A DNA stretch of 64,000 nt from an uncultured Candidatus Saccharibacteria bacterium (GTDB taxonomy: Bacteria; Patescibacteriota; Minisyncoccia; Phycocordibacterales; WO2-35-19), in NCBI GenBank assembly GCA_964464975.1, contig CAYXKV010000001.1, forward strand, positions 457-64,456. The letters run 5' to 3'. The notes beneath the pieces were generated by a model. It worked only from the letters and a program-made list of their open reading frames with translations. It had not been told where the DNA came from and did not search any database. Shown one piece after another: positions 1 to 62,495 of this stretch (within the stretch, counting starts at the first letter, position 1; the number at the start of each line of letters is the position of its first letter). A program made the translations under genes and the position numbers.

Positions 1-2862
1 GATAAAGCAGAGAATAAAGATAACTACTATACGCTTGTAGAATTTCCTTATCCGTCCGGAAATCTACATATTGGGCACTGGTACGCCTTTGCCGTGCCGG
101 ATATTTTTGCCCGAATGAAGAGAATGCAGGGTTACAACGTCCTATTTCCAATAGGTTTCGACGCTTTCGGACTACCGGCTGAAAATGCCGCCATCAAGCA
201 CGGCCTTGATCCAAAAAAATGGACTTATGAAAACATCGCCCATATGGAGAAACAGCTCCAGAGCATGGGAAACTCTTTTGATTGGTCGCGCAAAGTAATT
301 ACCTCGGATCCAGAGTATTACAAGTGGACACAGTGGCTCTTCCTCAAGTTTTATGAAAAGGGGCTAGCATATAAAAAGAAGGCATCGGTCAACTGGTGCC
401 CCAAAGACCAGACTGTTCTCGCAAACGAGCAAGTGGTTAGCGGTAAATGCGAAAGGTGTGGCACTGAAGTAGTGCAAAAGGATCTTGATCAGTGGTTTTT
501 CAAAATCACTGATTATGCGGAGCGCTTGCTCTCTGGCCTTGATAGCCTGAAATGGCCGGAGGCAATAAAGGAAGCCCAGAGAAATTGGATAGGGCGTTCT
601 GAAGGAGCAGAGATCAGTTTTAAGCTGATTTCAAGTAGCGAGCATCAAGTGACGAGCATCAAGGTGTTTACGACGAGGGCGGATACTTTGTTTGGGGCGA
701 CATATCTTGTATTGGCGCCAGAACATGAAATAATCTCAGAACTAAAAAATCAAAACGCAAAACAACATCTTAAAATTCAAAATTGGGAAGAAATAGAAAA
801 ATATGTTAAGAGCGTGAGAAACAAGTCTGATATCGAGAGGATTTCAGACACCAGAGAAAAAAGCGGAGTTGAATTGATAGGAGTAAGAGCGATTAATCCA
901 GCAACAGGGGAAGAAATTCCTGTCTGGGTTGCAGACTATGTTTTAGCAAGCTACGGCACTGGGGCGGTCATGGCCGTACCATCCCATGACGAGCGCGACT
1001 TCGAGTTTGCAAAAAAATTTGATTTGCCTATAAAGCAGGTGATAGCTCCTCATATAATTGACCTTGATAACCCACCTAAAGAAGGGAAGAGGTGTGCCCC
1101 AAGGATAGTGGTCCAGGGAATTGTAAGGCATTGGGAAAAAGATGAGGTCATACAAATTGTTTGGAAAAAATTCCCATGGAAGACATTTGTCATAGGCGGA
1201 GCCGAAGAAGGGGAAGACCTTGTTGAGGCGGTAAAAAGGGAAGTCAGGGAAGAAACAGGTTACAAAAATTTTAAAAATGTAAGGCCCCTTTCATATGAAA
1301 TGAGATCTGAGTGGTATGCAAGCCATAAGGACGAAAACAGATACGCCCACATGAATATGTTTGAAGTAATTCTCGCAGATGGAGAAAAAGAAGAGATTGA
1401 TCAAGAGGAAAAAGAAAAGCATGAAGTGGCGTGGGTGCCTTTCGCTTCAATACCAAAGAGCTACGCTCACGTAGGGGAACTAAAAGATATTTGGGAAGGA
1501 CTCAACATAGAGGATTATCCGAGATGTTTTCAGGGAGACGGCATACTCATAAGTTCTGGAGAATTTAGTGAAATGAAATCGGAAGTAGCAAGAGAAAAAA
1601 TTGCGGAGAAGTTCGGAAAGAAAGCAGTCAAATATAAATTGAGGGATTGGCTCTTGAGCCGCCAGAGGTATTGGGGGTGTCCCATACCGATAGTGTACGA
1701 TCCCGAAGACAAACCGCACGCAGTGCCGGAGGATTATCTTCCGTGGCTTTTACCTCAAGATGTAAAAGATTTTGCACCCAAAGGGGAGTCGCCTATCGCA
1801 ACTTCGCTAGAGTTCAAAGAGAGGACAGAGAGAATTTTTGGAAATGGCTGGAAGCCGGAGTATGATACCATGGACACTTTCGTAGACTCCTCATGGTACT
1901 TCCTTCGATATTGCGATCCTCACAACAACAAAGTGCCCTTCGACAAGCTCAGGGCAGTAAACTGGATGCCGGTCAAGAGATATTCGGGCGGAGCGGAACA
2001 CACTACCATGCATCTTCTCTATTCCAGATTTTTTCACAAGGCTCTTTTCGACATAGGCCTTGTCAGTGAGCCGGAACCTTTTGCAGAGAGGATGAATCGC
2101 GGGCTTATTCTCGGCCCCGACGGGCATAAAATGAGTAAGAGCAAAGGCAACGTCATCGATCCGGATGAATGGGTGAGGAAAGTAGGGGCGGATACTGTGA
2201 GGACTTACCTTGCATTCATCGGACCTTTCAATGAGGTGGGGCAGTATCCGTGGGATTTGGGCGGAATTGCAGGTGTACGCAGATTCTTGGAAAAAATTTG
2301 GAGAATCAGCTTAGAGCTTGAAGCTAAAAGCTTAGAGGAAAAAACAAACGGAAAAAACCTCCAAGCTAGAAGCTCCGAGCTAGAAGCTTTGTTGCACAAA
2401 ACAATAAAAAAAGTTACCGAAGATATTGAGACTTTTAAATTCAATACGGCAATTTCATCTATGATGATTTTCGTAAACGAACTTGAAAAAAATATTATAC
2501 CACACGAAAAAAGCCAAGGGTTCCCCTTGGCAATGGAGGAGATGGGGATGTTTTTGAGGATACTTGCACCTTTCGCTCCGCATATGACGGAAGAGATCTG
2601 GTCTAAAAATTTTGGATACAAAATTTCAATTCACCTTGAACCTTGGCCTGAGTATAACGCAACAAAGATTTTGGATGAAAAAATTACAATAGTTGTACAA
2701 GTGAACGGCAAAGTCAGAGCGAGCTTCAAGGCAGAAGTGGGAATTTCGGAAAAGGAGGCGCGTGAAGTCGCCCTTGAAATGCCAGAGGTCAGTAAGTGGC
2801 TAATTAAAGCCATAAAAAGGGTGATATTTGTGAAAGACAAGGTCATTAATTTTATAGTTTAG
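1..2862 (+). CDS. leuS: Leucyl-tRNA synthetase, 5'-truncated at the window edge, carrying an internal Nudix-domain insertion
   Basis: Frame 1 is open from nt 1. The HIGH motif (FPYPSGNLHIGHW) is at the window start. The editing domain (TTRADTLFGATYLVLAPEH, VMAVPSHDERDFEFA), KMSKS (HKMSKSKGN) and the zinc knuckle (CPKDQ...CERCG) are all present. Confidence 0.9.
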   Translation, partial: DKAENKDNYYTLVEFPYPSGNLHIGHWYAFAVPDIFARMKRMQGYNVLFPIGFDAFGLPAENAAIKHGLDPKKWTYENIAHMEKQLQSMGNSFDWSRKVITSDPEYYKWTQWLFLKFYEKGLAYKKKASVNWCPKDQTVLANEQVVSGKCERCGTEVVQKDLDQWFFKITDYAERLLSGLDSLKWPEAIKEAQRNWIGRSEGAEISFKLISSSEHQVTSIKVFTTRADTLFGATYLVLAPEHEIISELKNQNAKQHLKIQNWEEIEKYVKSVRNKSDIERISDTREKSGVELIGVRAINPATGEEIPVWVADYVLASYGTGAVMAVPSHDERDFEFAKKFDLPIKQVIAPHIIDLDNPPKEGKRCAPRIVVQGIVRHWEKDEVIQIVWKKFPWKTFVIGGAEEGEDLVEAVKREVREETGYKNFKNVRPLSYEMRSEWYASHKDENRYAHMNMFEVILADGEKEEIDQEEKEKHEVAWVPFASIPKSYAHVGELKDIWEGLNIEDYPRCFQGDGILISSGEFSEMKSEVAREKIAEKFGKKAVKYKLRDWLLSRQRYWGCPIPIVYDPEDKPHAVPEDYLPWLLPQDVKDFAPKGESPIATSLEFKERTERIFGNGWKPEYDTMDTFVDSSWYFLRYCDPHNNKVPFDKLRAVNWMPVKRYSGGAEHTTMHLLYSRFFHKALFDIGLVSEPEPFAERMNRGLILGPDGHKMSKSKGNVIDPDEWVRKVGADTVRTYLAFIGPFNEVGQYPWDLGGIAGVRRFLEKIWRISLELEAKSLEEKTNGKNLQARSSELEALLHKTIKKVTEDIETFKFNTAISSMMIFVNELEKNIIPHEKSQGFPLAMEEMGMFLRILAPFAPHMTEEIWSKNFGYKISIHLEPWPEYNATKILDEKITIVVQVNGKVRASFKAEVGISEKEAREVALEMPEVSKWLIKAIKRVIFVKDKVINFIV

Positions 2863-4042: not shown

Positions 4043-5278
4043 ATGCTTGATTTTATTCCCGGCGAAATCTGGGACAGCTTCTGGCTTGCAGTCCGTTACA
4101 TCATCGTATATTTGCCCCTGTGGCTGCCCGTCGCATTTCTTTATGCGGCTTTTAATGCGTGGATAAATTACCGCCGCGAAGTCTTTTGGTCGAAGCAAAA
4201 TCCAGTTCTACTTGAAATAAAGCTACCGAGAGAAATCGCCAAATCGCCGGCGGCTATGGAGATAGTGCTGGGCGCTTTTTTCCAGACCGGCGGTGAAGGT
4301 ACCTGGATAGACAGGATCTGGAAAGGCCAGACAAGGGCGTGGTTTTCACTTGAGATCGTCTCCCAAGGAGGCAGGGTACGATTTTTCGTATGGACATGGA
4401 CCAAATTCAAAAACCTTATTGAGTCGCAGATTTACGCCCAGTACCCCGGGGTCGAGGTCTATGAAGCCGAGGATTATACCATTCCCGAATATTATCATCC
4501 GGAAAGGAAGGAGATCTGGGCTTGCCAATATGCCCTGACTCAGCCGGACCCGTATCCGATAAAGACATATATTGATTATGGGCTGGACAAGGACCCCAAG
4601 GAGGAATACAAGGTCGACCCTATGACTGCAACCATTGAGTTTCTGGGATCCATCACGGAAGGGCAAAATATATGGGTGCAGATACTGGTGCGGGCGCACA
4701 AGAAGAGGAGGTTTGCGGATATTTTCGGTGAAAAAGAGGATGTTTGGAAGGACGAAGCTAAAAAACAAAAGGATGAGATTATTGAGAAATTAAAAGTTAA
4801 AAAAGAAGAAGGTGGGTTTCCAAGAATTCCATCCAAAGGTGAAGCGGAGGTGATAGCGGCGCTTGAAAGAAGCATTACCAAATTGCCTTTTGACTGCACC
4901 ATCAGAGCCCTCTACATCACAGAGAAGGACAAGTTTAATTCGGCAAATATCGGCGGCATCACCGGAGCTTTCAAGCAGTACGGCTCGCTCAACTTAAACG
5001 GCTTCAGGCCTGCCGGATGGATGACCATCTTTGATTATCCGTGGCAGGAATGGTTCGGAGCGAAGGAGAAGCTCAAGCCGAAAGTTTTGGAGGAATACAA
5101 ATTAAGGAGGTTTTTCTTTTCTCCCTACAGAGGCAAAAAATTCTATTCCAAGCCGTTTGTTTTAAATACCGAAGAGCTTGCTACGATTTTCCACTTCCCC
5201 GGAGCAGTCGCTGCTACCCCGACTTTGGGAAGAGTGCCTTCCAAGAAATCCGAGGCTCCGGCAAACCTTCCAGTATAA
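4043..5278 (+). CDS. Hypothetical membrane protein with two N-terminal TM helices
   Basis: 411-aa ORF with good codon continuity. TGATATAAT lies 7 nt upstream of the ATG, suggesting a leaderless transcript. No recognisable family. Confidence 0.5.
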   Translation: MLDFIPGEIWDSFWLAVRYIIVYLPLWLPVAFLYAAFNAWINYRREVFWSKQNPVLLEIKLPREIAKSPAAMEIVLGAFFQTGGEGTWIDRIWKGQTRAWFSLEIVSQGGRVRFFVWTWTKFKNLIESQIYAQYPGVEVYEAEDYTIPEYYHPERKEIWACQYALTQPDPYPIKTYIDYGLDKDPKEEYKVDPMTATIEFLGSITEGQNIWVQILVRAHKKRRFADIFGEKEDVWKDEAKKQKDEIIEKLKVKKEEGGFPRIPSKGEAEVIAALERSITKLPFDCTIRALYITEKDKFNSANIGGITGAFKQYGSLNLNGFRPAGWMTIFDYPWQEWFGAKEKLKPKVLEEYKLRRFFFSPYRGKKFYSKPFVLNTEELATIFHFPGAVAATPTLGRVPSKKSEAPANLPV

Positions 5279-7760: not shown

Positions 7761-7783
7761 GCGCCCCTGCTTTCGCGGGGCGC
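7761..7783 (+). terminator. GC hairpin gcgcccc-N9-ggggcgc after mnmA, with no T-run
   Basis: Inverted repeat immediately after the stop codon. Confidence 0.3.
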
Positions 7784-7911
7784 TCCATCACATCCTTCCC
7801 GCTGACAGCCGCGCAGAAATGATGAGTCTGATCGGTGCCAGAAAAAACAAGAGAATTTTGACTAACATGCTAGTTTGATTCAATCATAATTCGCTGATAC
7901 AATCAACTTTT

Positions 7912-8748
7912 ATGAGAGATGCCGTATATATTCTCAAAGCCACGGGAGAGAGGGAAGCTTTCGACTCCCAAAAGCTCTTTGATTCGCTTACGCGTTCAAG
8001 CGCAAGCGGGCCTGTTGCCGAAAAGATCGTAAGCCATATCGAATCGGAGCTCAAAGACGGCATGAGCACCAAGGAAATTTATAAGCACGCATTTGAGCTT
8101 CTTGACAGAGAGGAGAAACCGGCTGCGGCGAGATATTCTTTGAGGCGAGCCATCATGGATATGGGGCCGACCGGATTTCCGTTCGAGCAGCTTGTGGCGG
8201 AAATCTTTCGGGCAAGGGGGTTTGAGACCACCACTGAATTTATCGCCAGAGGGGAGTGCGCCGAGCACGAGATAGACATCACCGCATGGAATGAGAACAA
8301 GCTTGTTTTTGTAGAGGCCAAATTCCACAACGAACTGGGCCTCAAATCGGATCTCAAAGTAGTGTTATACATCAAGGCCCGATGGGACGACCTTTTGAGC
8401 ATGAAGTTTGAAGGCTTCGGAGAAAACAAGCGCTCTTTTGACGAAGGCTGGCTTGTTACCAATACCAAATTCTCGCAGGCAGCGATCGACTACGCCCTCT
8501 GCCGCAAGATGCGCCTTATAGGATGGAATTATCCGAGCAAGGATAATCTTCAGGATCTTATCATAGACGCGGGGCTTCACCCCATCACATGCCTCAATTC
8601 TTTGAGCCACAAGGAGAAGCAGACACTTATGGGTTTAGGGCTGATACTCTGTAAGCAAGCCAAGGAAAACCAAGATATCGTAGCTCAGGCAGTATCTCAA
8701 AATAAAATCATCCGCATGCTTGATGAAATCAATTTGATGCAGAAGTAG
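7912..8748 (+). CDS. ATP-cone domain protein fused to an Mrr-like (PD-(D/E)XK) restriction endonuclease domain
   Basis: N-terminal ATP-cone-like segment (VYILKATGEREAFDSQKLFDSL...). Then an Mrr_cat-like core (FEQLVAEIFRARGFE...EIDITAW...VFVEAKF). TGATACAAT sits 8 nt upstream of the ATG. Confidence 0.6.
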   Translation: MRDAVYILKATGEREAFDSQKLFDSLTRSSASGPVAEKIVSHIESELKDGMSTKEIYKHAFELLDREEKPAAARYSLRRAIMDMGPTGFPFEQLVAEIFRARGFETTTEFIARGECAEHEIDITAWNENKLVFVEAKFHNELGLKSDLKVVLYIKARWDDLLSMKFEGFGENKRSFDEGWLVTNTKFSQAAIDYALCRKMRLIGWNYPSKDNLQDLIIDAGLHPITCLNSLSHKEKQTLMGLGLILCKQAKENQDIVAQAVSQNKIIRMLDEINLMQK

Positions 8749-8749
8749 A

Positions 8750-9508
8750 ATGGCAAATTTTTACAGGAAAAAACTTTATGATCCGAATGCGGAGGAAGCA
8801 TTCAGAGTGAGCCGATCCAAGATCGATCTTTTTTTGGAATGTCCCAGATGCTTTTATCTTGACCGCAGGCTCGGAGTAGCCAGACCACAAGGATTTCCTT
8901 TCAACCTGAACAGCGCAGTCGACATTTTGCTCAAAAAAGAGTTTGACATCCACCGCAGACAGAAGACCCCTCACCCTCTCATGGATTCCTATGGAGTAGA
9001 TGCCGTACCTTTCGGGCATAAAATGATGGATACTTGGAGAGACACGTTCAAAGGAGTGGAGTATTTACATGAGCCTACTAATTTCGTAGTTTTCGGCGGA
9101 GTGGATGATGTCTGGCAGGACAGCAAGGACAATCTCATAGTTGTTGACTACAAAGCCACAAGCAAAGATGCAGAAGTGACTCTCGACGCGGAATGGCAGG
9201 ATGGCTACAAAAGGCAGATGGAGGTCTATCAGTGGCTTTTGCGCCGCAACGGTTTTAGCGTTTCGGACACCGGATACTTCGTGTATGCAAACGGTCGGCG
9301 CGACAGGGAAGCATTCGACGGCAAACTGGAGTTTGACGTTAAGCTTATTCCTTACACGGGCAAGGACAATTGGGTGGAAAAAACCTTGCATCAGATGAAG
9401 GAGTGTCTGGATTCTGATGAAATTCCTAAATCCTCCGCAAACTGCGAATACTGCAAATACATAAGAGAGGTAACTAAAACAAACTCCGCACATGAACACA
9501 AAAAGTGA
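8750..9508 (+). CDS. PD-(D/E)XK nuclease with Cas4-like Cys clusters
   Basis: N-terminal CPRC, a VVDYKATSK...EVYQWLL nuclease core, and a C-terminal CEYCKY. This is the layout of Cas4/DUF83-type Fe-S nucleases. Confidence 0.55.
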   Translation: MANFYRKKLYDPNAEEAFRVSRSKIDLFLECPRCFYLDRRLGVARPQGFPFNLNSAVDILLKKEFDIHRRQKTPHPLMDSYGVDAVPFGHKMMDTWRDTFKGVEYLHEPTNFVVFGGVDDVWQDSKDNLIVVDYKATSKDAEVTLDAEWQDGYKRQMEVYQWLLRRNGFSVSDTGYFVYANGRRDREAFDGKLEFDVKLIPYTGKDNWVEKTLHQMKECLDSDEIPKSSANCEYCKYIREVTKTNSAHEHKK

Positions 9509-10100
9509 TTTCATAGAACACTTGAAAAAAACGCGAGTTTTAAAGACCGAGCAGATTAAAAATGCTTTTGAAAAAATCGACCGTAAAGATTTCGTCGATC
9601 CGGATTATGCCGAAGAGGCTTACGAAGATTATCCGCTCCCCATAAGCTACGGCCAGACTATTTCACAGCCGACAACCGTTGCCTTTATGCTCGAGCTTTT
9701 GGACCTTAAAGGCGACGAAAAGGTACTCGATGTAGGCTCCGGTTCTGGCTACACCACCGCTCTTCTTGCCGAAATCTTAAACGTCGGCGGAGAAGTTTTG
9801 GGGATAGAGCTTATTCCGGAGCTTGCAGAAAAAGGGAAGAGAAACCTCAATAGGTATAATTTTAAGAATGCCAGAATCGAGCATGGCGACGGCAGGAAAT
9901 TCGATAAGGATGAAATGTTCGACCGCATTTTGGTAAACGCTGCATCAGACGACATACCGGCAAATTTTACCAAACTTTTGAAGCCCGGAGGCATTGTGGT
10001 CATACCAGTGAGACACTCGATAGTCAAAATCGAAAAGAATAGCAATGGCGACTTGAGCGGCAGGGAATTCCCTGGATTTTCTTTCGTCCCACTGAAATAA
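9492..10100 (+). CDS. pcm: Protein-L-isoaspartate O-methyltransferase
   Basis: TISQPTTVAFMLELL and the SAM motif VLDVGSGSGYTTALLA. Confidence 0.8.
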   Translation: MNTKSDFIEHLKKTRVLKTEQIKNAFEKIDRKDFVDPDYAEEAYEDYPLPISYGQTISQPTTVAFMLELLDLKGDEKVLDVGSGSGYTTALLAEILNVGGEVLGIELIPELAEKGKRNLNRYNFKNARIEHGDGRKFDKDEMFDRILVNAASDDIPANFTKLLKPGGIVVIPVRHSIVKIEKNSNGDLSGREFPGFSFVPLK

Positions 10101-10142: not shown

Positions 10143-10397
10143 ATGAGAGCTTTCAAACAAAATGTGCTCAATATTGTAAAGGGGATACCCAAAGGCAAGG
10201 TGATGACTTACAAGGAAGTCGCCAGAGCTACAGGCTCACCTCGGGCATATCAAGCCGTCGGAAATATTTTGAACCAAAATTATGATCCTCGCATTCCGTG
10301 CCACAGGGTCATCCGCTCCGACGGCAAAGCCGGCGGATACAACCGCGGGAAAAACAAAAAACTAAAAATCCTAAAATCAGAAGCGGTCAAATTCTAA
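10143..10397 (+). CDS. Standalone methylated-DNA-protein-cysteine methyltransferase (MGMT) C-terminal domain protein
   Basis: 84-aa ORF with the PCHRV active-site motif and a DNA-binding HTH, but no N-terminal Ogt domain. Confidence 0.6.
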   Translation: MRAFKQNVLNIVKGIPKGKVMTYKEVARATGSPRAYQAVGNILNQNYDPRIPCHRVIRSDGKAGGYNRGKNKKLKILKSEAVKF

Positions 10398-10546: not shown

Positions 10547-11152
10547 ATGTCGCAAACTATCGAGGAAAGGAGAGAAATGATGAGAAAAATAAGGGACGAA
10601 GTGGTCTCTCTCAAGGAGTCGCCCCTGTATGAATTCAGGATTGAGAACAAAAACCTTCCGGTTATCGGAGAGGGCAGCCATTTTGCAAAGATAATGTTTA
10701 TTGGAGAAGCCCCGGGCAGGAACGAAGCGAAATACGGCAGGCCCTTCTGCGGCCGCGCGGGAGATATTTTGAATGAGCTACTTGCTGGTGTTGCTATAAG
10801 AAGAGAGGATGTTTATATAACAAACATAGTCAAAGATCGACCACCTGCAAACCGGGATCCTTTACCAGGCGAAATAGAAATTTATGGACCTTTTTTGGAT
10901 AGGCAGGTTGAAATTATTGAGCCAAAAGTTATTGTTACACTCGGGCGTTATTCGATGTATTACATAATGCCCAAATTCGGTCTAGAATTTGAATTGGAAC
11001 CAATAAGCAAAAATCACGGCAAAGTTTTTGATGGGCAAGCCAGCTATGGCCCTATTAAGATCGTGCCTCTCTATCATCCAGCTGTCGCTGTCTACAATAG
11101 GCACACCTTGGATTTACTCAAAAAAGATTTTGAAGTTCTCAGGGAATTGTAG
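10547..11152 (+). CDS. Uracil-DNA glycosylase, family 4
   Basis: GEAPGRNEAKYGRPFCGRAGDILNELL matches the family-4 UDG motif. Confidence 0.8.
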   Translation: MSQTIEERREMMRKIRDEVVSLKESPLYEFRIENKNLPVIGEGSHFAKIMFIGEAPGRNEAKYGRPFCGRAGDILNELLAGVAIRREDVYITNIVKDRPPANRDPLPGEIEIYGPFLDRQVEIIEPKVIVTLGRYSMYYIMPKFGLEFELEPISKNHGKVFDGQASYGPIKIVPLYHPAVAVYNRHTLDLLKKDFEVLREL

Positions 11153-14127: not shown

Positions 14128-14748
14128 ATGAAAAATAAAAGAAATAAAAATTCGAAAAACGACATAAAGAAAATCGCGAACTTTCTTTTTGAAGTAGGCA
14201 TCTTAGCCCGTACCCCGCGCAGCGGCTTTCACTTTTTGGGAACCGGACACCAGACTGTTGCGGAGCACATAAACCGCGTTTCTTATATCGGAATGATGCT
14301 TTCCTTCATGGATGGCGGCGTAGATGTTTCAAAAGTCTTGCAGATGTGTCTGCTCCACGATATCTCTGAAACGCGCATTTCGGATTTAAATTACGTCCAC
14401 CAAAAATACGTCGAGCGCAAAGAGCGGGAGGCTCATGTCGATATTGCCAAAGCCGTGCCTTTTGGCGATAAATTCCTTTCGCTTATCGACGAATATGAGG
14501 AGAGGGGGAGCAGGGAAGCTATTTTAGTCAAAGACGCTGACAATCTGGAGTGGATTCTTGCCCTCAAGGAAGAGGTAGATACAGGTAACAGCCGCGCTCT
14601 CGACTGGATTGTCCCTGCAATAAAGAGGCTCAAGACTAAGGAAGGGAAAGCTATCGCAAAAGAGATAATGAAAACCGACTCCAACGACTGGTGGTTCGAT
14701 AAAAAGAGCCAAAAAAGCAGTTGGTGGGTTAATAGAAATAAAAAATAA
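14128..14748 (+). CDS. HD-domain phosphohydrolase (YfbR-like 5'-nucleotidase family)
   Basis: H...HD motif (AEHINRVSYIGMML...LLHDISETRISD). Confidence 0.7.
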   Translation: MKNKRNKNSKNDIKKIANFLFEVGILARTPRSGFHFLGTGHQTVAEHINRVSYIGMMLSFMDGGVDVSKVLQMCLLHDISETRISDLNYVHQKYVERKEREAHVDIAKAVPFGDKFLSLIDEYEERGSREAILVKDADNLEWILALKEEVDTGNSRALDWIVPAIKRLKTKEGKAIAKEIMKTDSNDWWFDKKSQKSSWWVNRNKK

Positions 14749-59657: not shown

Positions 59658-62495
59658 CTAAATTTTTGTGACTTCTACACTGCCGCTCGGGGCTGAGAAT
59701 CTGAGTACTCCGCCCGAAGAAGACACGGCTGTGCCTTGGTAGATGCCGTCGACTTTGATGTTATAACTTGCCCCAAAATCCATACCAAAGAGGTAATGCT
59801 CCGCGACTGCTCCTGTATTCGCATTATATGCGACAGAAGCCGGAGCGCTTTGATTTTCATCGGCCCGGAGCAAAGCTACTATTTTGCTTGCACCATCGGA
59901 TACATAAGCTCCGAGCATTCCGCCTTGGCTTACTGTTAGGCTTTGAATTTCAGGAGCAGACGATACTTTATCTTTTGCCACGATCGCGTGAAGGAAGTTT
60001 TGCTCCATAGCCGCTGTCGATGCGGACGTGTCTGTATAAAACGCTCCGACTTGGGAGATGCTTGCATGCGGAAGAGTAAGGTTTGCGATCGAAGGAGAGG
60101 ACGGCTCAAGCACCTTCAAGTATGCTTTGGAATTGCCGTTTTCGACAGTAATGCTGTTACCCGAAATTGTGGGTTTCTGCGGGTAGAAGAATCTTATCTT
60201 TTTAACATGGTTTGGATCTGTGGACCTGACATGGTCGGCAACAAGGATAATATTCGGTCTCAGGAAAACATACGATCTGACGAAAGACTTGAGAGTTGTT
60301 GAGGTTGGTACGCTCGTTTTCCTGTCATAAGCTCTGGTGTAATCAGCTCGACCAAAAGCGTATTTTGCGGTAGCTTCGTATGCAAGAATATTGTCAACTC
60401 CATTGTATCCCTGTCCCCCCTTATACTGGCTGCTTGTGGGCAGATATTGGCCGAGATCGTCAAAGAACAGAGTGTTTTCTCCCTCTGAAGCTGTTATGAA
60501 GATCCCTTGCGGAGCAGAACCGTAATGCCCTCGCGGATCGTAAAGCGTAGTGCTTGGGATAAAACTCAGGCGGTGGCCGATTGAATGAACAACCAGCGGA
60601 TCTGAAGCCCTCGCCACAAATACACCTCCAGCGTCTCTCATTTGATGACCGGCTATATGAATCTTTCCGCCTATCCGAAACGAGGACCAGACCGCATCAT
60701 CTTGCCAGCTGCCGCGGGAATATACATATTCACTCCCTTGTTCTGTGCGATAGGTTAAAGGATATGTATTCCTGAAATCGGACGAGAATCTCGAGGAATC
60801 ATAATAAAGCACTTTGTCTGACACCGAAGGTTCATAATCTTTTACGGGCGCGGAAACTGCGTAAGAAGTGAGAAATTGAGCAAACGGCCCATCGAAAGTA
60901 CCTTCCAAGACATCTGCCGCAATGCCAGCAACATAAGCTGGAAAAATTCCTGAGATGCTTCCTCCCCATTCGCCGTAATCCATCACCTGCCATCTGCTCG
61001 GTTTGAGCCCGTAAGTAAGAGCTTTGGCTGTCTGCCTTGCAATTCCGGAAGAGCTCTCAAGGTCAACCCCTTTTGCTGTCTTGTACGCAAGTATAAATTT
61101 CATAAACCTACTAACACTGCTTCCATAAGCCCAGCCCTCGGGTTCATCTCCTCCATATTCAGCGCCTCCTGGTTGAAACCCGGGTTTTACAACATTGTTA
61201 AATTCGCTCATAGCCCTCGAAACAAAAATACTTCCCTGCGGGTGATCATTCTCGATAGCAAGACTTCCAAGTCCCAAAGCTCCGAAATAGCCGGCATAAA
61301 AGTTGCTGACAGCCGGACCGTCAATCTCGTATACCCTTTTGCCGTCAGCGGCATAGTTTAGGTATTCTGCTATTTGATTTGCATAGCTTACGCGCTTGGA
61401 TAAAGGCAAAAGGTTATAGAGCCAGTCATACCCAACGGACATTATCTCTCCATAAAACCTCAAAGGATATCCGTTGCTCGCATCTCCATAGCCAGCCGTA
61501 CAACCAAGCTTAAGGAATTGGAATTTTTCTCTGGTTGAACTCATGAACGGGCAAGTACCAGCCAGATCTAGTTTGTCCATTATTTCAATCGCTTTGTTCC
61601 CATATGCAGAATTCCCACTCAAGAGATAAGCGAGCGCCAGTGTTTTCAAAGGGTCAGGGTAACCCGAACCTCTATACCCCTCATTTATGGTTCCGGATGG
61701 CGTCCCCTCGTTATAACCCTTCACCGGCATGGCAAGGTATTCGTCCGCTTTGGCTTTGAGAGCAAGCCAGTCAGGATGATTAGATGTAAATTTTGTCTTC
61801 ATTTCGCCCAGCTTATCTCCTGCCGCGATAATTCTCGGGTGTGCAGATAGAGCGGGGTTAGGATCATAGACAACGACGGTGGCCTTGAGAGTCTCGTATG
61901 TTGCCTGCCCAAGAGGGCGGAAGGTCAGAGTATAAGTCTCAGTCGCCGATGGAGTAATAACTTTGCTGTCGATGAGCGAGACCGTGCCGAATTTATCGAT
62001 CAAGGGATTCTGCGAGCCATCCTTTATATACCAATACAATGTCGCCGACTCCCCCGCTTTAATATGATTAGGGTAAAAGAAAAATTCCGAATACTGCACC
62101 GAAGACGGAGGCTGGGGCGAGGTAACTGTAATCTGAGTATTTGCCTGCATCGAACCATTCGAGTTTTTGGCGGTCAAAACATAAGTCGTCGTAGTGGTTG
62201 GAGCTACGCTTACCGGAGAAACCGTAACCGGCCCCACTCCGGGATCAATAACGATAGAAGTGGCGTTGCTTACTGACCAGTAAAGCTTGGCCCCTTGTCC
62301 CTGTTCTATCTGTGTCGGGCTGGCATAAAAATTGCTGATAGTCGGCGGCTGACTCTTGGGCCCGCCTTTAGCAGCAAAAATTGCCTGCAGGCTGGCAAGA
62401 TCCCACTCCGGCGCGGCCATGTAGCCAACTGAGGTAAACAGTGCTAAGAGCACAAGCATCAGGGCTATGCCCTTTACTGTTAAAAATTCCTTCAT
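59658..62495 (-). CDS. Large secreted protein with N-terminal Ig-like repeats and a heparinase II/III-like / alginate-lyase-like region
   Basis: Signal peptide. Two repeats of about 90 aa rich in T/S/V. A central AHPRIIAAGDKLGEMKTKF...DWLALKAKADEYL... segment resembles the N-termini of PL-family lyases. Confidence 0.45.
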   Translation of the reverse strand: MKEFLTVKGIALMLVLLALFTSVGYMAAPEWDLASLQAIFAAKGGPKSQPPTISNFYASPTQIEQGQGAKLYWSVSNATSIVIDPGVGPVTVSPVSVAPTTTTTYVLTAKNSNGSMQANTQITVTSPQPPSSVQYSEFFFYPNHIKAGESATLYWYIKDGSQNPLIDKFGTVSLIDSKVITPSATETYTLTFRPLGQATYETLKATVVVYDPNPALSAHPRIIAAGDKLGEMKTKFTSNHPDWLALKAKADEYLAMPVKGYNEGTPSGTINEGYRGSGYPDPLKTLALAYLLSGNSAYGNKAIEIMDKLDLAGTCPFMSSTREKFQFLKLGCTAGYGDASNGYPLRFYGEIMSVGYDWLYNLLPLSKRVSYANQIAEYLNYAADGKRVYEIDGPAVSNFYAGYFGALGLGSLAIENDHPQGSIFVSRAMSEFNNVVKPGFQPGGAEYGGDEPEGWAYGSSVSRFMKFILAYKTAKGVDLESSSGIARQTAKALTYGLKPSRWQVMDYGEWGGSISGIFPAYVAGIAADVLEGTFDGPFAQFLTSYAVSAPVKDYEPSVSDKVLYYDSSRFSSDFRNTYPLTYRTEQGSEYVYSRGSWQDDAVWSSFRIGGKIHIAGHQMRDAGGVFVARASDPLVVHSIGHRLSFIPSTTLYDPRGHYGSAPQGIFITASEGENTLFFDDLGQYLPTSSQYKGGQGYNGVDNILAYEATAKYAFGRADYTRAYDRKTSVPTSTTLKSFVRSYVFLRPNIILVADHVRSTDPNHVKKIRFFYPQKPTISGNSITVENGNSKAYLKVLEPSSPSIANLTLPHASISQVGAFYTDTSASTAAMEQNFLHAIVAKDKVSSAPEIQSLTVSQGGMLGAYVSDGASKIVALLRADENQSAPASVAYNANTGAVAEHYLFGMDFGASYNIKVDGIYQGTAVSSSGGVLRFSAPSGSVEVTKI

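What the first reader, a model, noticed from the sequence alone, without database searches (positions are those of the whole stretch)
7912..9508. Adjacent ATP-cone/Mrr-like endonuclease and Cas4-like Fe-S PD-(D/E)XK nuclease: candidate two-gene nuclease (defence or repair) module
Gene 1 fuses a nucleotide-sensing ATP-cone to an Mrr-type restriction endonuclease core (D...EAK). Gene 2, starting 2 nt later, is a PD-(D/E)XK nuclease bracketed by Cys pairs (CPRC ... CEYC), like Cas4-family 4Fe-4S nucleases. The genes are tightly coupled and share a leaderless promoter upstream of gene 1. An allosteric ATP-cone on a restriction-type nuclease suggests nucleotide-regulated DNA cleavage. No methyltransferase partner is nearby.
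Basis: partly seen in the sequence, partly recalled or inferred. Interest (0 to 1): 0.55.

Follow-up and report, generated by a model that had tools for sequence, protein, structure and literature searches.

The report
ATP-cone nuclease beside a solo Cas4-like nuclease
Two real, co-transcribed nuclease genes sit in a housekeeping region of a Patescibacteria genome; they do not look like a phage-defence pair, but the first belongs to a widespread, unstudied family of nucleases carrying an ATP/dATP-sensing domain that elsewhere is linked to nucleotide-recycling genes.

Summary
G1 (7912-8748) has an ATP-cone, a Mrr-type PD-(D/E)XK core and the C-terminal domain of the unstudied protein AF1548 (PDB 1Y88). 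G2 (8750-9508) is a RecB/Cas4-superfamily nuclease with invariant CxxC...CxxC. All domain hits pass Pfam cut-offs.

The "two-gene defence module" reading is not supported. G1 sits at a fixed place in a conserved Paceibacteria housekeeping block (DUF8128-MltG-MnmA-G1-[slot]-UDG-PepF). G2 fills the slot in only 28 of 73 species-level loci. The ten G2 homologues found on IMG/VR contigs have no G1 nearby. None of 59 loci of non-CPR G1 relatives has a Cas4-like neighbour. There is no CRISPR array, no DNA methyltransferase and no PADLOC system hit.

Outside CPR, 35 of those 59 loci carry a beta-CASP nuclease immediately downstream. It is often followed by an AMP-phosphorylase-like enzyme and a ribose-phosphate diphosphokinase.

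Best reading: G1 is an ATP/dATP-gated nuclease of nucleic-acid turnover or nucleotide salvage. G2 is a known kind of CPR solo Cas4-like nuclease, possibly its lineage-specific exonuclease partner. The mechanism is inferred, and no biochemistry exists for G1's family.

The parts
7875..7903 (+). Promoter-like site TTGATT-17 nt-(TG)TACAAT, ending 8 nt before the G1 ATG
   Evidence: (9 of 12 matches, TG extension) and sequence. Consensus match only; the transcription start is not shown.
7912..8748 (+). G1: 278-aa protein with three domains: ATP-cone, AF1548/Mrr-type PD-(D/E)XK nuclease, AF1548-like C-terminal helical domain
   Evidence: The start matches homologues.
7927..8151 (+). ATP-cone domain of G1 (residues 6-80)
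   Evidence: PF03477, 32.6 bits above the 25.8 cut-off. Foldseek matches NrdR ATP-cones at rmsd 2.0-2.7 A over about 80 residues. A family profile hits NrdR and NrdD ATP-cones at E 0.01-0.04.
8188..8661 (+). Nuclease core and start of the C-terminal domain of G1 (residues 93-250), homologous to AF1548. Catalytic D122, E135, K137.
   Evidence: phmmer to PDB 1Y88, E 1.8e-25; Foldseek E 1.9e-12. E92, E120, D122, E135 and K137 are invariant from archaea to CPR. D122/E135/K137 have the same D-x12-E-x-K spacing as the catalytic D38/E51/K53 predicted for AF1548 in PMC1821046.
8750..9508 (+). G2: 252-aa RecB/Cas4-superfamily (PDDEXK_1) nuclease with CxxC...CxxC, of the 'solo-Cas4' kind
9492..10100 (+). 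Protein-L-isoaspartate O-methyltransferase; its start overlaps the G2 stop by 17 nt (same transcription unit; context)
   Evidence: PF01135, 194.7 bits; coordinates.
10143..10397 (+). 84-aa MGMT-type DNA-binding domain protein with a PCHRV motif (context: DNA repair)
   Evidence: PF01035, 93.5 bits; translation.
10547..11152 (+). Uracil-DNA glycosylase superfamily protein (context: the most constant downstream neighbour of G1)
   Evidence: PF03167, 106.8 bits. Within 4 kb downstream of G1 in 45 of 73 loci.

Best explanation
G1 and G2 are two genuine nucleases transcribed together from a promoter upstream of G1, inside a conserved housekeeping and DNA-maintenance block of a Paceibacteria (Patescibacteria/CPR) chromosome. 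They are not a self-contained defence system.

G1 belongs to a widespread, uncharacterised family with a fixed three-domain architecture: ATP-cone, AF1548-type PD-(D/E)XK nuclease, AF1548_C. I infer that ATP/dATP binding to the cone switches the nuclease on or off. The likely route is a change of oligomeric state, as in NrdR and ribonucleotide reductases. Nucleic-acid cleavage would then follow the cell's adenine-nucleotide or dNTP status.

The family's conserved gene partners outside CPR are a beta-CASP nuclease, an AMP-phosphorylase-like enzyme and a ribose-phosphate diphosphokinase. They point to nucleic-acid turnover feeding nucleotide salvage or catabolism.

G2 is a stand-alone RecB/Cas4-like metal-cluster nuclease of a kind already noted in CPR. 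It occupies a variable slot after G1 and may serve here as the exonuclease that processes G1's products.

Shown: the domains, the conserved catalytic residues, and the synteny and partner statistics. Inferred: nucleotide gating, substrate, endo-plus-exo cooperation, and the salvage role.
For: 1. Domains and catalytic residues are significant and conserved.
2. G1's nuclease and C-terminal part match AF1548/1Y88 (E 1.8e-25). Close AF1548 homologues carry a canonical ATP-cone N-terminus, so the fusion also occurs in Archaeoglobi-type archaeal relatives.
3. The family has 429 clusters at 50% identity with E<=1e-30, nearly all about 280 aa and full length.
4. G1 has a fixed position in the block DUF8128-MltG-MnmA-G1-[slot]-UDG-PepF across the 80 species-level loci kept, and in the contigs that carry close G2 homologues.
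5. Slot content follows clades of the G1 tree: G2 28, MgtC 14, HD/YfbR-like 13, ExoX-like 2, NTPase 1, out of 73 loci.
6. On the Pontibacter and Criblamydia plasmids the G1 homologue heads an operon with a beta-CASP MBL nuclease, an AMP-phosphorylase-like protein and a ribose-phosphate diphosphokinase.
7. In 59 metagenome loci of that branch (the 80 loci fetched span GC 30-71%): beta-CASP downstream in 35, the phosphorylase in 13, the kinase in 8, and a Cas4-like gene in 0.
8. A Bathyarchaeia homologue sits next to a bona fide AMP phosphorylase (TIGR03327, 622 bits against 535) and an IF-2B-family protein that I take to be ribose-1,5-bisphosphate isomerase. An archaeal-branch homologue lies 2.5 kb from NrdR, RNR and dCMP deaminase.
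9. G2's fold matches the AdnA/AddB, Cas4, RecE, lambda-exonuclease and EXO5 nucleases. Solo-Cas4 in CPR, with mainly vertical inheritance, is described in PMC5704561.
Against: There is no biochemical evidence for any member of the G1 family; AF1548 is a structural-genomics orphan.

In the window itself none of the beta-CASP, AMP-phosphorylase or kinase partners is present, neither in the 64 kb nor within 6 kb of G1 in 80 Paceibacteria loci. The salvage link is therefore carried over from distant homologues at about 40% identity.

The local neighbours (MGMT-like, UDG) fit DNA repair at least as well. The HD/YfbR gene is part of the same syntenic block anyway (window 14128-14748), so its occasional adjacency to G1 is weak evidence.

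Many distant homologues have uninformative neighbours.

The cone has KATG where archaeal homologues have the KRDG that I recall as the canonical motif, and the model is of low confidence there (pLDDT<50 at residues 10-12). Nucleotide binding is not assured.
Confidence: 0.45

Rival explanations
1. DNA-repair operon. G1 and G2 are repair or recombination nucleases that act with the adjacent MGMT-type protein and uracil-DNA glycosylase. Examples would be end resection or incision at damaged or branched DNA. The ATP-cone would tie repair to dNTP availability.
For: The immediate neighbours in the window are an MGMT-type DNA-binding protein with PCHRV and a UDG. UDG is the most constant downstream neighbour of G1 (45 of 73 loci). 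An ExoX-like exonuclease replaces G2 in two loci. G2's nearest folds are the end-resection nucleases AdnA and AddB. PMC5704561 suggests repair or defence roles for solo-Cas4 in small genomes.
Against: Outside CPR the family's conserved partners are nucleotide-catabolic (AMP-phosphorylase-like, ribose-phosphate diphosphokinase), not repair genes. The Paceibacteria block also holds unrelated housekeeping genes (MltG, MnmA, PCMT, PepF, AlaRS), so adjacency may be inherited gene order only.
Confidence: 0.25
2. One reading: a two-gene anti-phage or anti-plasmid nuclease system. An ATP/dATP-sensing restriction-type endonuclease detects infection-induced changes in the nucleotide pool and, with a Cas4-like nuclease, destroys DNA.
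For: The Mrr_cat fold is typical of type IV restriction enzymes. The architecture parallels sensor-nuclease defence effectors such as Can2 and Cdn1, which gave weak Foldseek hits. One G2 homologue at 50% identity lies between an EcoRI-type methylase, a GmrSD/HNH protein and a ThsB-TIR protein (L090). Two G1 homologues are plasmid-borne.
Against: PADLOC gives no system-level hit for G1, G2 or the Criblamydia operon. G1 sits at a fixed locus in a housekeeping block, not in a variable island. Identity across species is high. The G2 partner is dispensable. No G1 was found in IMG/VR. The window has no DNA methyltransferase near the pair and no CRISPR array. The conserved partners elsewhere are metabolic.
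Confidence: 0.12
3. Pure synteny. G1 and G2 are functionally unrelated housekeeping nucleases that happen to be neighbours and co-transcribed in this lineage.
For: G2 is absent from the slot in more than half of the loci while G1 stays. In four loci MgtC lies between them (L027, L038, L068, L080). G2 homologues occur without G1 in the ten IMG/VR contigs that carry one. The whole region is strongly syntenic.
Against: Where both are present they are usually separated by 0-60 nt or overlap. In other lineages G1 is again followed directly by a second nuclease of a different fold (beta-CASP 35 of 59; ExoX 2 of 73), which hints at a recurring endo-plus-exo pairing.
Confidence: 0.18

Closest known systems
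AF1548 of Archaeoglobus fulgidus (PDB 1Y88; Pfam Mrr_cat + AF1548-like_C, PF22357)
   Same: G1 residues 93-250 are homologous (E 1.8e-25; Foldseek E 1.9e-12, TM 0.78 on the target). The D-x12-E-x-K spacing is the same as that of the catalytic residues predicted in PMC1821046.
   Different: The crystallised 199-aa chain lacks the ATP-cone. Close homologues (P0393, 79% identity) do start with a canonical cone, so the deposited gene model is probably N-terminally truncated. Its function has never been determined.
ATP-cone of NrdR and of ribonucleotide reductases
   Same: Same sensor domain by Pfam, by fold (NrdR, rmsd 2.0-2.7 A) and by profile (NrdR and NrdD, E 0.01-0.04). From established knowledge, the cone binds ATP/dATP and switches oligomeric state.
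   Different: The output domain is a PD-(D/E)XK nuclease, not a Zn-ribbon DNA binder or a reductase. G1 has KATG where archaeal homologues have the KRDG that I recall as the canonical motif. Ligand binding is untested.
Can2 / Card1 / Cdn1 (CARF sensor + PD-(D/E)XK nuclease, type III CRISPR ancillary nucleases)
   Same: Same logic: an N-terminal nucleotide-ligand sensor fused to a PD-(D/E)XK nuclease. Weak Foldseek hits (E 4e-3 to 2e-2) and a weak PADLOC CARF_PDDEXK hit (E 0.005).
   Different: The sensors are unrelated (CARF against ATP-cone). The ligand there is a cyclic oligoadenylate. There is no CRISPR context here, and the similarity is limited to the nuclease core.
Mrr-type (type IV) restriction endonucleases
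   Same: The catalytic domain falls in Pfam Mrr_cat above the cut-off.
   Different: From memory, Mrr has an N-terminal DNA-recognition domain for modified DNA; G1 has an ATP-cone instead. G1 is a fixed, conserved chromosomal gene with no defence-island context.
Solo-Cas4 / PDDEXK_1 nucleases of CPR and DPANN (Hudaiberdiev et al. 2017, PMC5704561; M. mazei Solo-Cas4, PMC12501428)
   Same: G2 is a stand-alone RecB/Cas4-superfamily nuclease with four conserved Cys, outside any CRISPR locus, in a small-genome CPR bacterium. This is the situation described in PMC5704561. The characterised M. mazei Solo-Cas4 is a metal-dependent DNA nuclease that binds a [4Fe-4S] cluster.
   Different: The G2 cysteines are arranged CxxC...CxxC rather than one N-terminal plus three C-terminal (the latter from memory). 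G2 scores below the NCBIfam cas4 cut-off. No PDB chain matches it by sequence.
AdnA / AddB / RecB nuclease domains, RecE, lambda exonuclease, EXO5, MGME1
   Same: These are the best structural matches of the G2 model (Foldseek E 5e-6 to 1e-3). G2 has the shared D...D-x-K and QxxxY motifs.
   Different: G2 is a 252-aa stand-alone protein with no helicase partner in the window region examined. TM-scores are only 0.3-0.47.

Membership tests
Pfam ATP-cone (PF03477) | Profile score at or above the gathering cut-off | tested here: met
   32.6 bits against 25.8, residues 6-80. Precomputed PF03477 hits in nearly all of the 120 listed homologues.
Pfam ATP-cone (PF03477) | Binds ATP/dATP and transmits an allosteric signal | not testable with these tools
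   Only indirect evidence: K9, G12, E13, K21, Y75 and R78 are invariant in 24 homologues, and the fold superposes on NrdR cones.
AF1548 family (Mrr_cat + AF1548-like_C) | Sequence and fold homology to PDB 1Y88 across the nuclease and C-terminal domains | tested here: met
   phmmer E 1.8e-25 for query residues 93-250; profile E 6.9e-71; Foldseek E 1.9e-12.
PD-(D/E)XK nucleases (Mrr_cat, PF04471) | Catalytic D ... (D/E)-x-K residues conserved | tested here: met
   D122 and E135-A-K137 are invariant from archaea to CPR. Mrr_cat 32.7 bits against 21.
Type IV (Mrr-like) restriction system | N-terminal modified-DNA recognition domain and a variable, defence-type genomic context | tested here: not met
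   The N-terminus is an ATP-cone. The gene is at a fixed position in a housekeeping block in the 80 loci examined. No G1 on IMG/VR contigs.
CRISPR-associated Cas4 | NCBIfam equivalog TIGR00372 score at or above the cut-off | tested here: not met
   39 bits against a cut-off of 65. Pfam Cas_Cas4 only just passes (24.5 against 22.7).
CRISPR-associated Cas4 | Encoded next to cas1/cas2 and a CRISPR array | tested here: not met
   No CRISPR-like direct or tandem repeats in the 64 kb. The six neighbouring genes scanned are MltG, MnmA, PCMT, MGMT-like, UDG (Pfam) and PepF (named from homologues), none of them cas. Not every window ORF was scanned.
CRISPR-associated Cas4 | Four Cys in a 1 (N-terminal) + 3 (C-terminal) arrangement binding an Fe-S cluster (arrangement from memory) | tested here: not met
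   The invariant Cys are C31-x2-C34 and C232-x2-C235, a 2+2 arrangement. The metal content cannot be tested here.
RecB/Cas4 nuclease superfamily (PDDEXK_1, PF12705; 'solo-Cas4' sensu PMC5704561) | Profile score above the cut-off, D...D-x-K and QxxxY motifs, and a RecB-like fold | tested here: met
   48.9 bits against 22. D120, D133-Y-K135 and Q156xxxY160 are invariant. Foldseek matches AdnA, Cas4, AddB, RecE and EXO5.
Catalogued anti-phage defence systems (PADLOC-DB v2) | Proteins match models of a known or candidate system | tested here: not met
   G1: only a weak CARF_PDDEXK hit (E 0.005). G2: generic Cas4 models only. The Criblamydia operon proteins gave nothing significant.
Obligate two-gene G1-G2 module | The pair is conserved as neighbours across the range of both families | tested here: not met
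   G2 within 4 kb downstream of G1 in 28 of 73 Paceibacteria loci. 0 of 59 non-CPR loci. 0 of 10 looked-up distant G1 homologues plus 0 of 2 plasmid homologues have a Cas4-like neighbour. 0 of 10 IMG/VR G2 loci have G1.

The most novel reading that the evidence does not exclude
The G1 family (ATP-cone + AF1548-type nuclease) is a new class of adenine-nucleotide-gated nucleases. It would control the first step of a previously undescribed nucleic-acid catabolic or salvage route: a gated endonuclease, then a partner exonuclease (beta-CASP, Cas4-like or ExoX-like depending on lineage), then an AMP-phosphorylase-like enzyme, then a ribose-phosphate diphosphokinase. In nucleotide-auxotrophic Patescibacteria it would decide when cellular or imported DNA/RNA is converted into nucleotides, with G2 as the lineage-specific exonuclease.
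Probability: 0.3. Interest if true: 0.75.

Novelty: new variant of a known kind. Interest (0 to 1): 0.5.

Why it matters
ATP-cones are known almost only as the allosteric switch of ribonucleotide reductases and of their repressor NrdR. A conserved family in which the same switch sits on a nuclease would extend dNTP/ATP sensing from nucleotide synthesis to nucleic-acid breakdown. The family is found from archaea to CPR, Bacteroidota and Chlamydiota.

The gene partners found here outside CPR are a beta-CASP nuclease, an AMP-phosphorylase-like enzyme and a ribose-phosphate diphosphokinase. They give a concrete hypothesis that can be tested in a cultivable organism (Pontibacter actiniarum).

For Patescibacteria the question is how they obtain nucleotides, since (from my own knowledge) they generally lack de novo nucleotide synthesis; a regulated nuclease at a fixed core locus is a candidate part of the answer.

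The result also warns against calling any Mrr-like plus Cas4-like gene pair a defence system.

Tried and rejected
1. CRISPR link: no CRISPR-like repeats in the window, and G2 is below the cas4 equivalog cut-off. Rejected.
2. Known defence system: PADLOC was negative for G1, G2 and the Criblamydia operon.
3. Phage origin: no G1 relative on IMG/VR contigs. The ten G2 relatives there have mixed contexts and may be cellular contigs, three of them carrying MltG. PHROGs gave only generic exonuclease hits for G2.
4. Sequence-level PDB relatives of G2: none, with either the single sequence or the profile.
5. Literature: no paper in the searchable library links an ATP-cone to a nuclease, to AMP phosphorylase or to Patescibacteria. 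AF1548 appears only as a predicted restriction-like orphan.
6. A Foldseek search against afdb50 was not available.
7. I tested whether the large ORFs upstream of G2 homologues in L081 and L085 are related to each other or to the window's 944-aa ORF. They are not.
8. I first read the varying slot content (HD/YfbR, ExoX, NTPase) as in-situ functional replacement of G2. I downgraded this after finding that HD/YfbR belongs to the same syntenic block anyway.
Full report
**1. What is in the sequence**

Two same-strand ORFs occupy the stated coordinates. G1 is at 7912-8748 (278 aa) and G2 at 8750-9508 (252 aa). The G1 stop codon and the G2 ATG are separated by a single base.

A promoter-like site, TTGATT-17-(TG)TACAAT, ends 8 nt before the G1 ATG. 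That fits a leaderless or near-leaderless mRNA, but it is only a consensus match.

The G2 stop overlaps by 17 nt the start of a protein-L-isoaspartate O-methyltransferase (9492-10100). Next come an 84-aa MGMT-type DNA-binding protein (PCHRV motif), a UDG-superfamily glycosylase and oligoendopeptidase F. Upstream lie a DUF8128-type protein, MltG/YceG and MnmA.

The 64 kb contain no CRISPR-like array.

**2. Domains**

G1:
- ATP-cone, 32.6 bits against a cut-off of 25.8, residues 6-80; Mrr_cat, 32.7 bits against 21.
- Residues 93-250 are homologous to the structural-genomics orphan AF1548 (PDB 1Y88; E 1.8e-25).
- The AlphaFold model (pLDDT 82) matches 1Y88 best (E 1.9e-12). It matches NrdR ATP-cones locally at rmsd 2.0-2.7 A, and matches the MspJI, Can2 and Cdn1 nuclease cores only weakly.
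- E92, E120, D122, E135 and K137 are invariant from archaeal to CPR members. D122/E135/K137 have the same D-x12-E-x-K spacing as the catalytic triad predicted for AF1548 (PMC1821046).

G2:
- PDDEXK_1, 48.9 bits; Cas_Cas4, 24.5 bits. It is below the NCBIfam cas4 cut-off, 39 against 65 bits.
- Invariant residues are D120, D133-x-K135, Q156xxxY160 and four cysteines arranged CxxC...CxxC.
- Its model (pLDDT 83) resembles the AdnA/AddB, Cas4, RecE, lambda-exonuclease and EXO5 nucleases at modest TM-scores.
- No PDB chain is detectable by sequence.

**3. Organism and conservation**

The named homologues are Patescibacteria: Zambryskibacteria, Taylorbacteria, Paceibacterota.
- G1 has 3522 homologues at E<=1e-5; the best 119 other than the window's own sequence are 62-70% identical.
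- G2 has at least 8000 homologues; the best 119 other than the window's own sequence are 68-87% identical.

Such conservation is typical of housekeeping genes rather than arms-race genes. PMC5704561 reached the same conclusion for solo-Cas4 and reported solo-Cas4 in many CPR genomes.

**4. Is the pair a module?**

G1 always lies in the same block, DUF8128-MltG-MnmA-G1-[slot]-UDG-PepF. Among 73 loci with at least 900 bp downstream:
- G2 lies within 4 kb downstream in 28, and within 300 bp in 23.
- UDG lies within 4 kb in 45.
- The slot otherwise holds MgtC (14), an HD/YfbR-like 5'-deoxynucleotidase (13), an ExoX-like exonuclease (2) or an NTPase_I-T (1).

On a G1 tree, slot content is clade-specific. 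This suggests vertical inheritance with repeated loss or rearrangement.

Close G2 homologues (at least 70% identical) that were looked up are all next to G1 in the same block. The ten G2 homologues at 50-63% identity on IMG/VR contigs have no G1 within 5 kb and have varied neighbours. One lies in a defence-island-like setting, and one between two helicases.

G1 was not found on viral contigs.

The pair is thus a lineage-restricted arrangement inside a strongly syntenic region, not an obligate module.

**5. The wider G1 family**

An exhaustive HMMER search found 429 clusters at 50% identity with E<=1e-30. Almost all of those listed are about 280 aa and align end to end.

Searching with the AF1548 fragment recovered archaeal members (Archaeoglobus, Bathyarchaeia, Nanoarchaeota), many with an ATP-cone. 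P0393, 79% identical to AF1548, starts with a canonical VRKRDGRLEEF cone. The crystallised 199-aa AF1548 is therefore probably an N-terminally truncated gene model.

Full-length homologues at about 40% identity occur on plasmids of Pontibacter actiniarum (Bacteroidota) and Criblamydia sequanensis (Chlamydiota), annotated "ATP cone domain-containing protein".

In both plasmids the gene heads the same four-gene, same-strand cluster:
- the ATP-cone nuclease;
- a 450-aa beta-CASP nuclease (Lactamase_B + Beta-Casp + RMMBL);
- a "thymidine phosphorylase family" protein of the archaeal/AMP-phosphorylase type (PRK04350, 679 bits; TIGR03327, 506 against 535);
- a ribose-phosphate diphosphokinase (PRK07199, 401 bits).

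In Criblamydia the cluster is flanked by phosphoketolase, glucan phosphorylase and acetate kinase.

A metagenome scan seeded on this branch returned 80 loci (GC 30-71%; some contigs of Mb size). Of the 59 with at least 1.5 kb downstream:
- 35 have the beta-CASP gene downstream on the same strand, mostly within 350 bp;
- 13 also have the phosphorylase;
- 8 have the kinase;
- none has a Cas4-like gene, UDG or any other window neighbour.

A Bathyarchaeia homologue lies directly downstream of a bona fide AMP phosphorylase (622 bits against 535) and an IF-2B-family protein that I take to be ribose-1,5-bisphosphate isomerase. An archaeal-branch homologue is 2.5 kb from NrdR, RNR and dCMP deaminase. 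Other contexts are uninformative.

None of these partner genes is catalogued in PADLOC. I found no paper on an ATP-cone nuclease or on this cluster.

**6. Interpretation**

Shown:
- G1 and G2 are intact nucleases by sequence criteria.
- They are co-oriented and almost contiguous.
- G1 is a fixed, widely conserved gene, and G2 is facultative.
- The G1 family recurrently sits next to a second nuclease of varying fold and, outside CPR, next to nucleotide-catabolic enzymes.

Inferred:
- The cone binds ATP/dATP and gates the nuclease, by analogy with NrdR and RNR.
- G1 makes endonucleolytic cuts that a partner exonuclease finishes. The partner would be beta-CASP elsewhere, and G2 or ExoX in Paceibacteria.
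- The purpose is nucleic-acid turnover feeding nucleotide salvage.
- The substrate, DNA or RNA, is unknown. The RMMBL domain of the beta-CASP partner leaves RNA open.

In the window itself the nearest neighbours (MGMT-type, UDG) fit DNA repair about as well. None of the salvage partners lies within the 64 kb. I therefore rate the salvage-gating model at 0.45, a repair role at 0.25, neighbourhood by synteny alone at 0.18, and defence at 0.12.

**7. Comparison with known systems**

- G1 is a member of the AF1548 family and carries a genuine Pfam ATP-cone.
- It works like a sensor-gated PD-(D/E)XK nuclease such as Can2, but it is not a member of that family.
- It fails the tests for a type IV restriction system.
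- G2 is a member of the RecB/Cas4 superfamily of the solo-Cas4/PDDEXK_1 kind already described in CPR. It fails the tests for a CRISPR Cas4: score, context and Cys arrangement.

**8. Verdict**

The genes and domains are real. The "defence module" label is not supported. G2 is an ordinary CPR solo Cas4-like nuclease.

G1 is the interesting part. Its domain architecture is present in databases but functionally unstudied, and this work attaches a testable context to it. Novelty: new variant of a known kind. Interest: 0.5.

Noticed in passing
window 94-2862 (+): The 922-aa leucyl-tRNA synthetase carries an inserted NUDIX domain (PF00293, 48.9 bits, residues 359-454) just after the editing domain. 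This is an unusual fusion.
   Followed up: no
L100 (Pontibacter plasmid NZ_CP021236) 1972-6597; L101 (Criblamydia plasmid NZ_LK031773) 5995-10602; L106-L185: A conserved operon: ATP-cone nuclease, beta-CASP nuclease, AMP-phosphorylase-like protein, ribose-phosphate diphosphokinase. In Criblamydia it is flanked by phosphoketolase, glgP and acetate kinase. I found no description of it in the searchable literature.
   Followed up: partly
PDB 1Y88 (AF1548) compared with P0391, P0393 and P0394: The crystallised AF1548 (199 aa) appears N-terminally truncated. Near-identical archaeal homologues are 222-246 aa, and P0393 begins with a canonical ATP-cone (VRKRDGRLEEF).
   Followed up: partly
L090 2690-6339 (IMG/VR contig): A G2 homologue at 50% identity lies between an EcoRI-type adenine methyltransferase plus a GmrSD-N/HNH protein and a ThsB-like TIR protein, a defence-island-like context. 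In L081 another homologue is flanked by a ResIII/TnsA-like 895-aa protein and a PIF1/RecD-like helicase.
   Followed up: no
window 4043-5278 (+): A 411-aa ORF with no Pfam hit in my scan. Its homologues are recorded as DUF8128 (PF26449) and sit just upstream of MltG in most Paceibacteria loci examined, after a sigma-70 gene where that was visible. It overlaps the listed TTG start of MltG (5178), so the true MltG start is probably further downstream.
   Followed up: no
window 59658-62495 (-): A 944-aa ORF with no Pfam family at E<=0.001. It is unrelated to the large ORFs that precede G2 homologues in L081 and L085.
   Followed up: partly
L015, L017, L027, L033, L038, L072, L080 and others; L097 9601-10026; L163: A small MgtC-family membrane protein is the immediate downstream neighbour of G1 in 13 of 73 Paceibacteria loci. 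One also occurs about 4 kb downstream of the Bathyarchaeia homologue, and there is a weak hit (30% identity) about 3 kb upstream of G1 in L163. I have no explanation.
   Followed up: no
window 7761-7783: A perfect GC-rich hairpin (GCGCCCC-TGCTTTCG-CGGGGCGC) lies directly after the MnmA stop and has no T-run. It may be a terminator or an RNA-stability element separating MnmA from the G1 transcription unit. The terminator scan did not pick it up.
   Followed up: no
window 14128-14748 (+): An HD/YfbR-like 5'-deoxynucleotidase homologue, 67% identical to the one that replaces G2 in L008, lies about 1.2 kb downstream of PepF. It belongs to the same syntenic block.
   Followed up: partly
L104 7380-12208: In an archaeal-branch contig, the G1-family gene is followed two genes later by a PP-loop ATPase with tRNA_Me_trans hits, recalling the MnmA-G1 adjacency in Paceibacteria. 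NrdR, a class II-type RNR and a dCMP deaminase come next.
   Followed up: no
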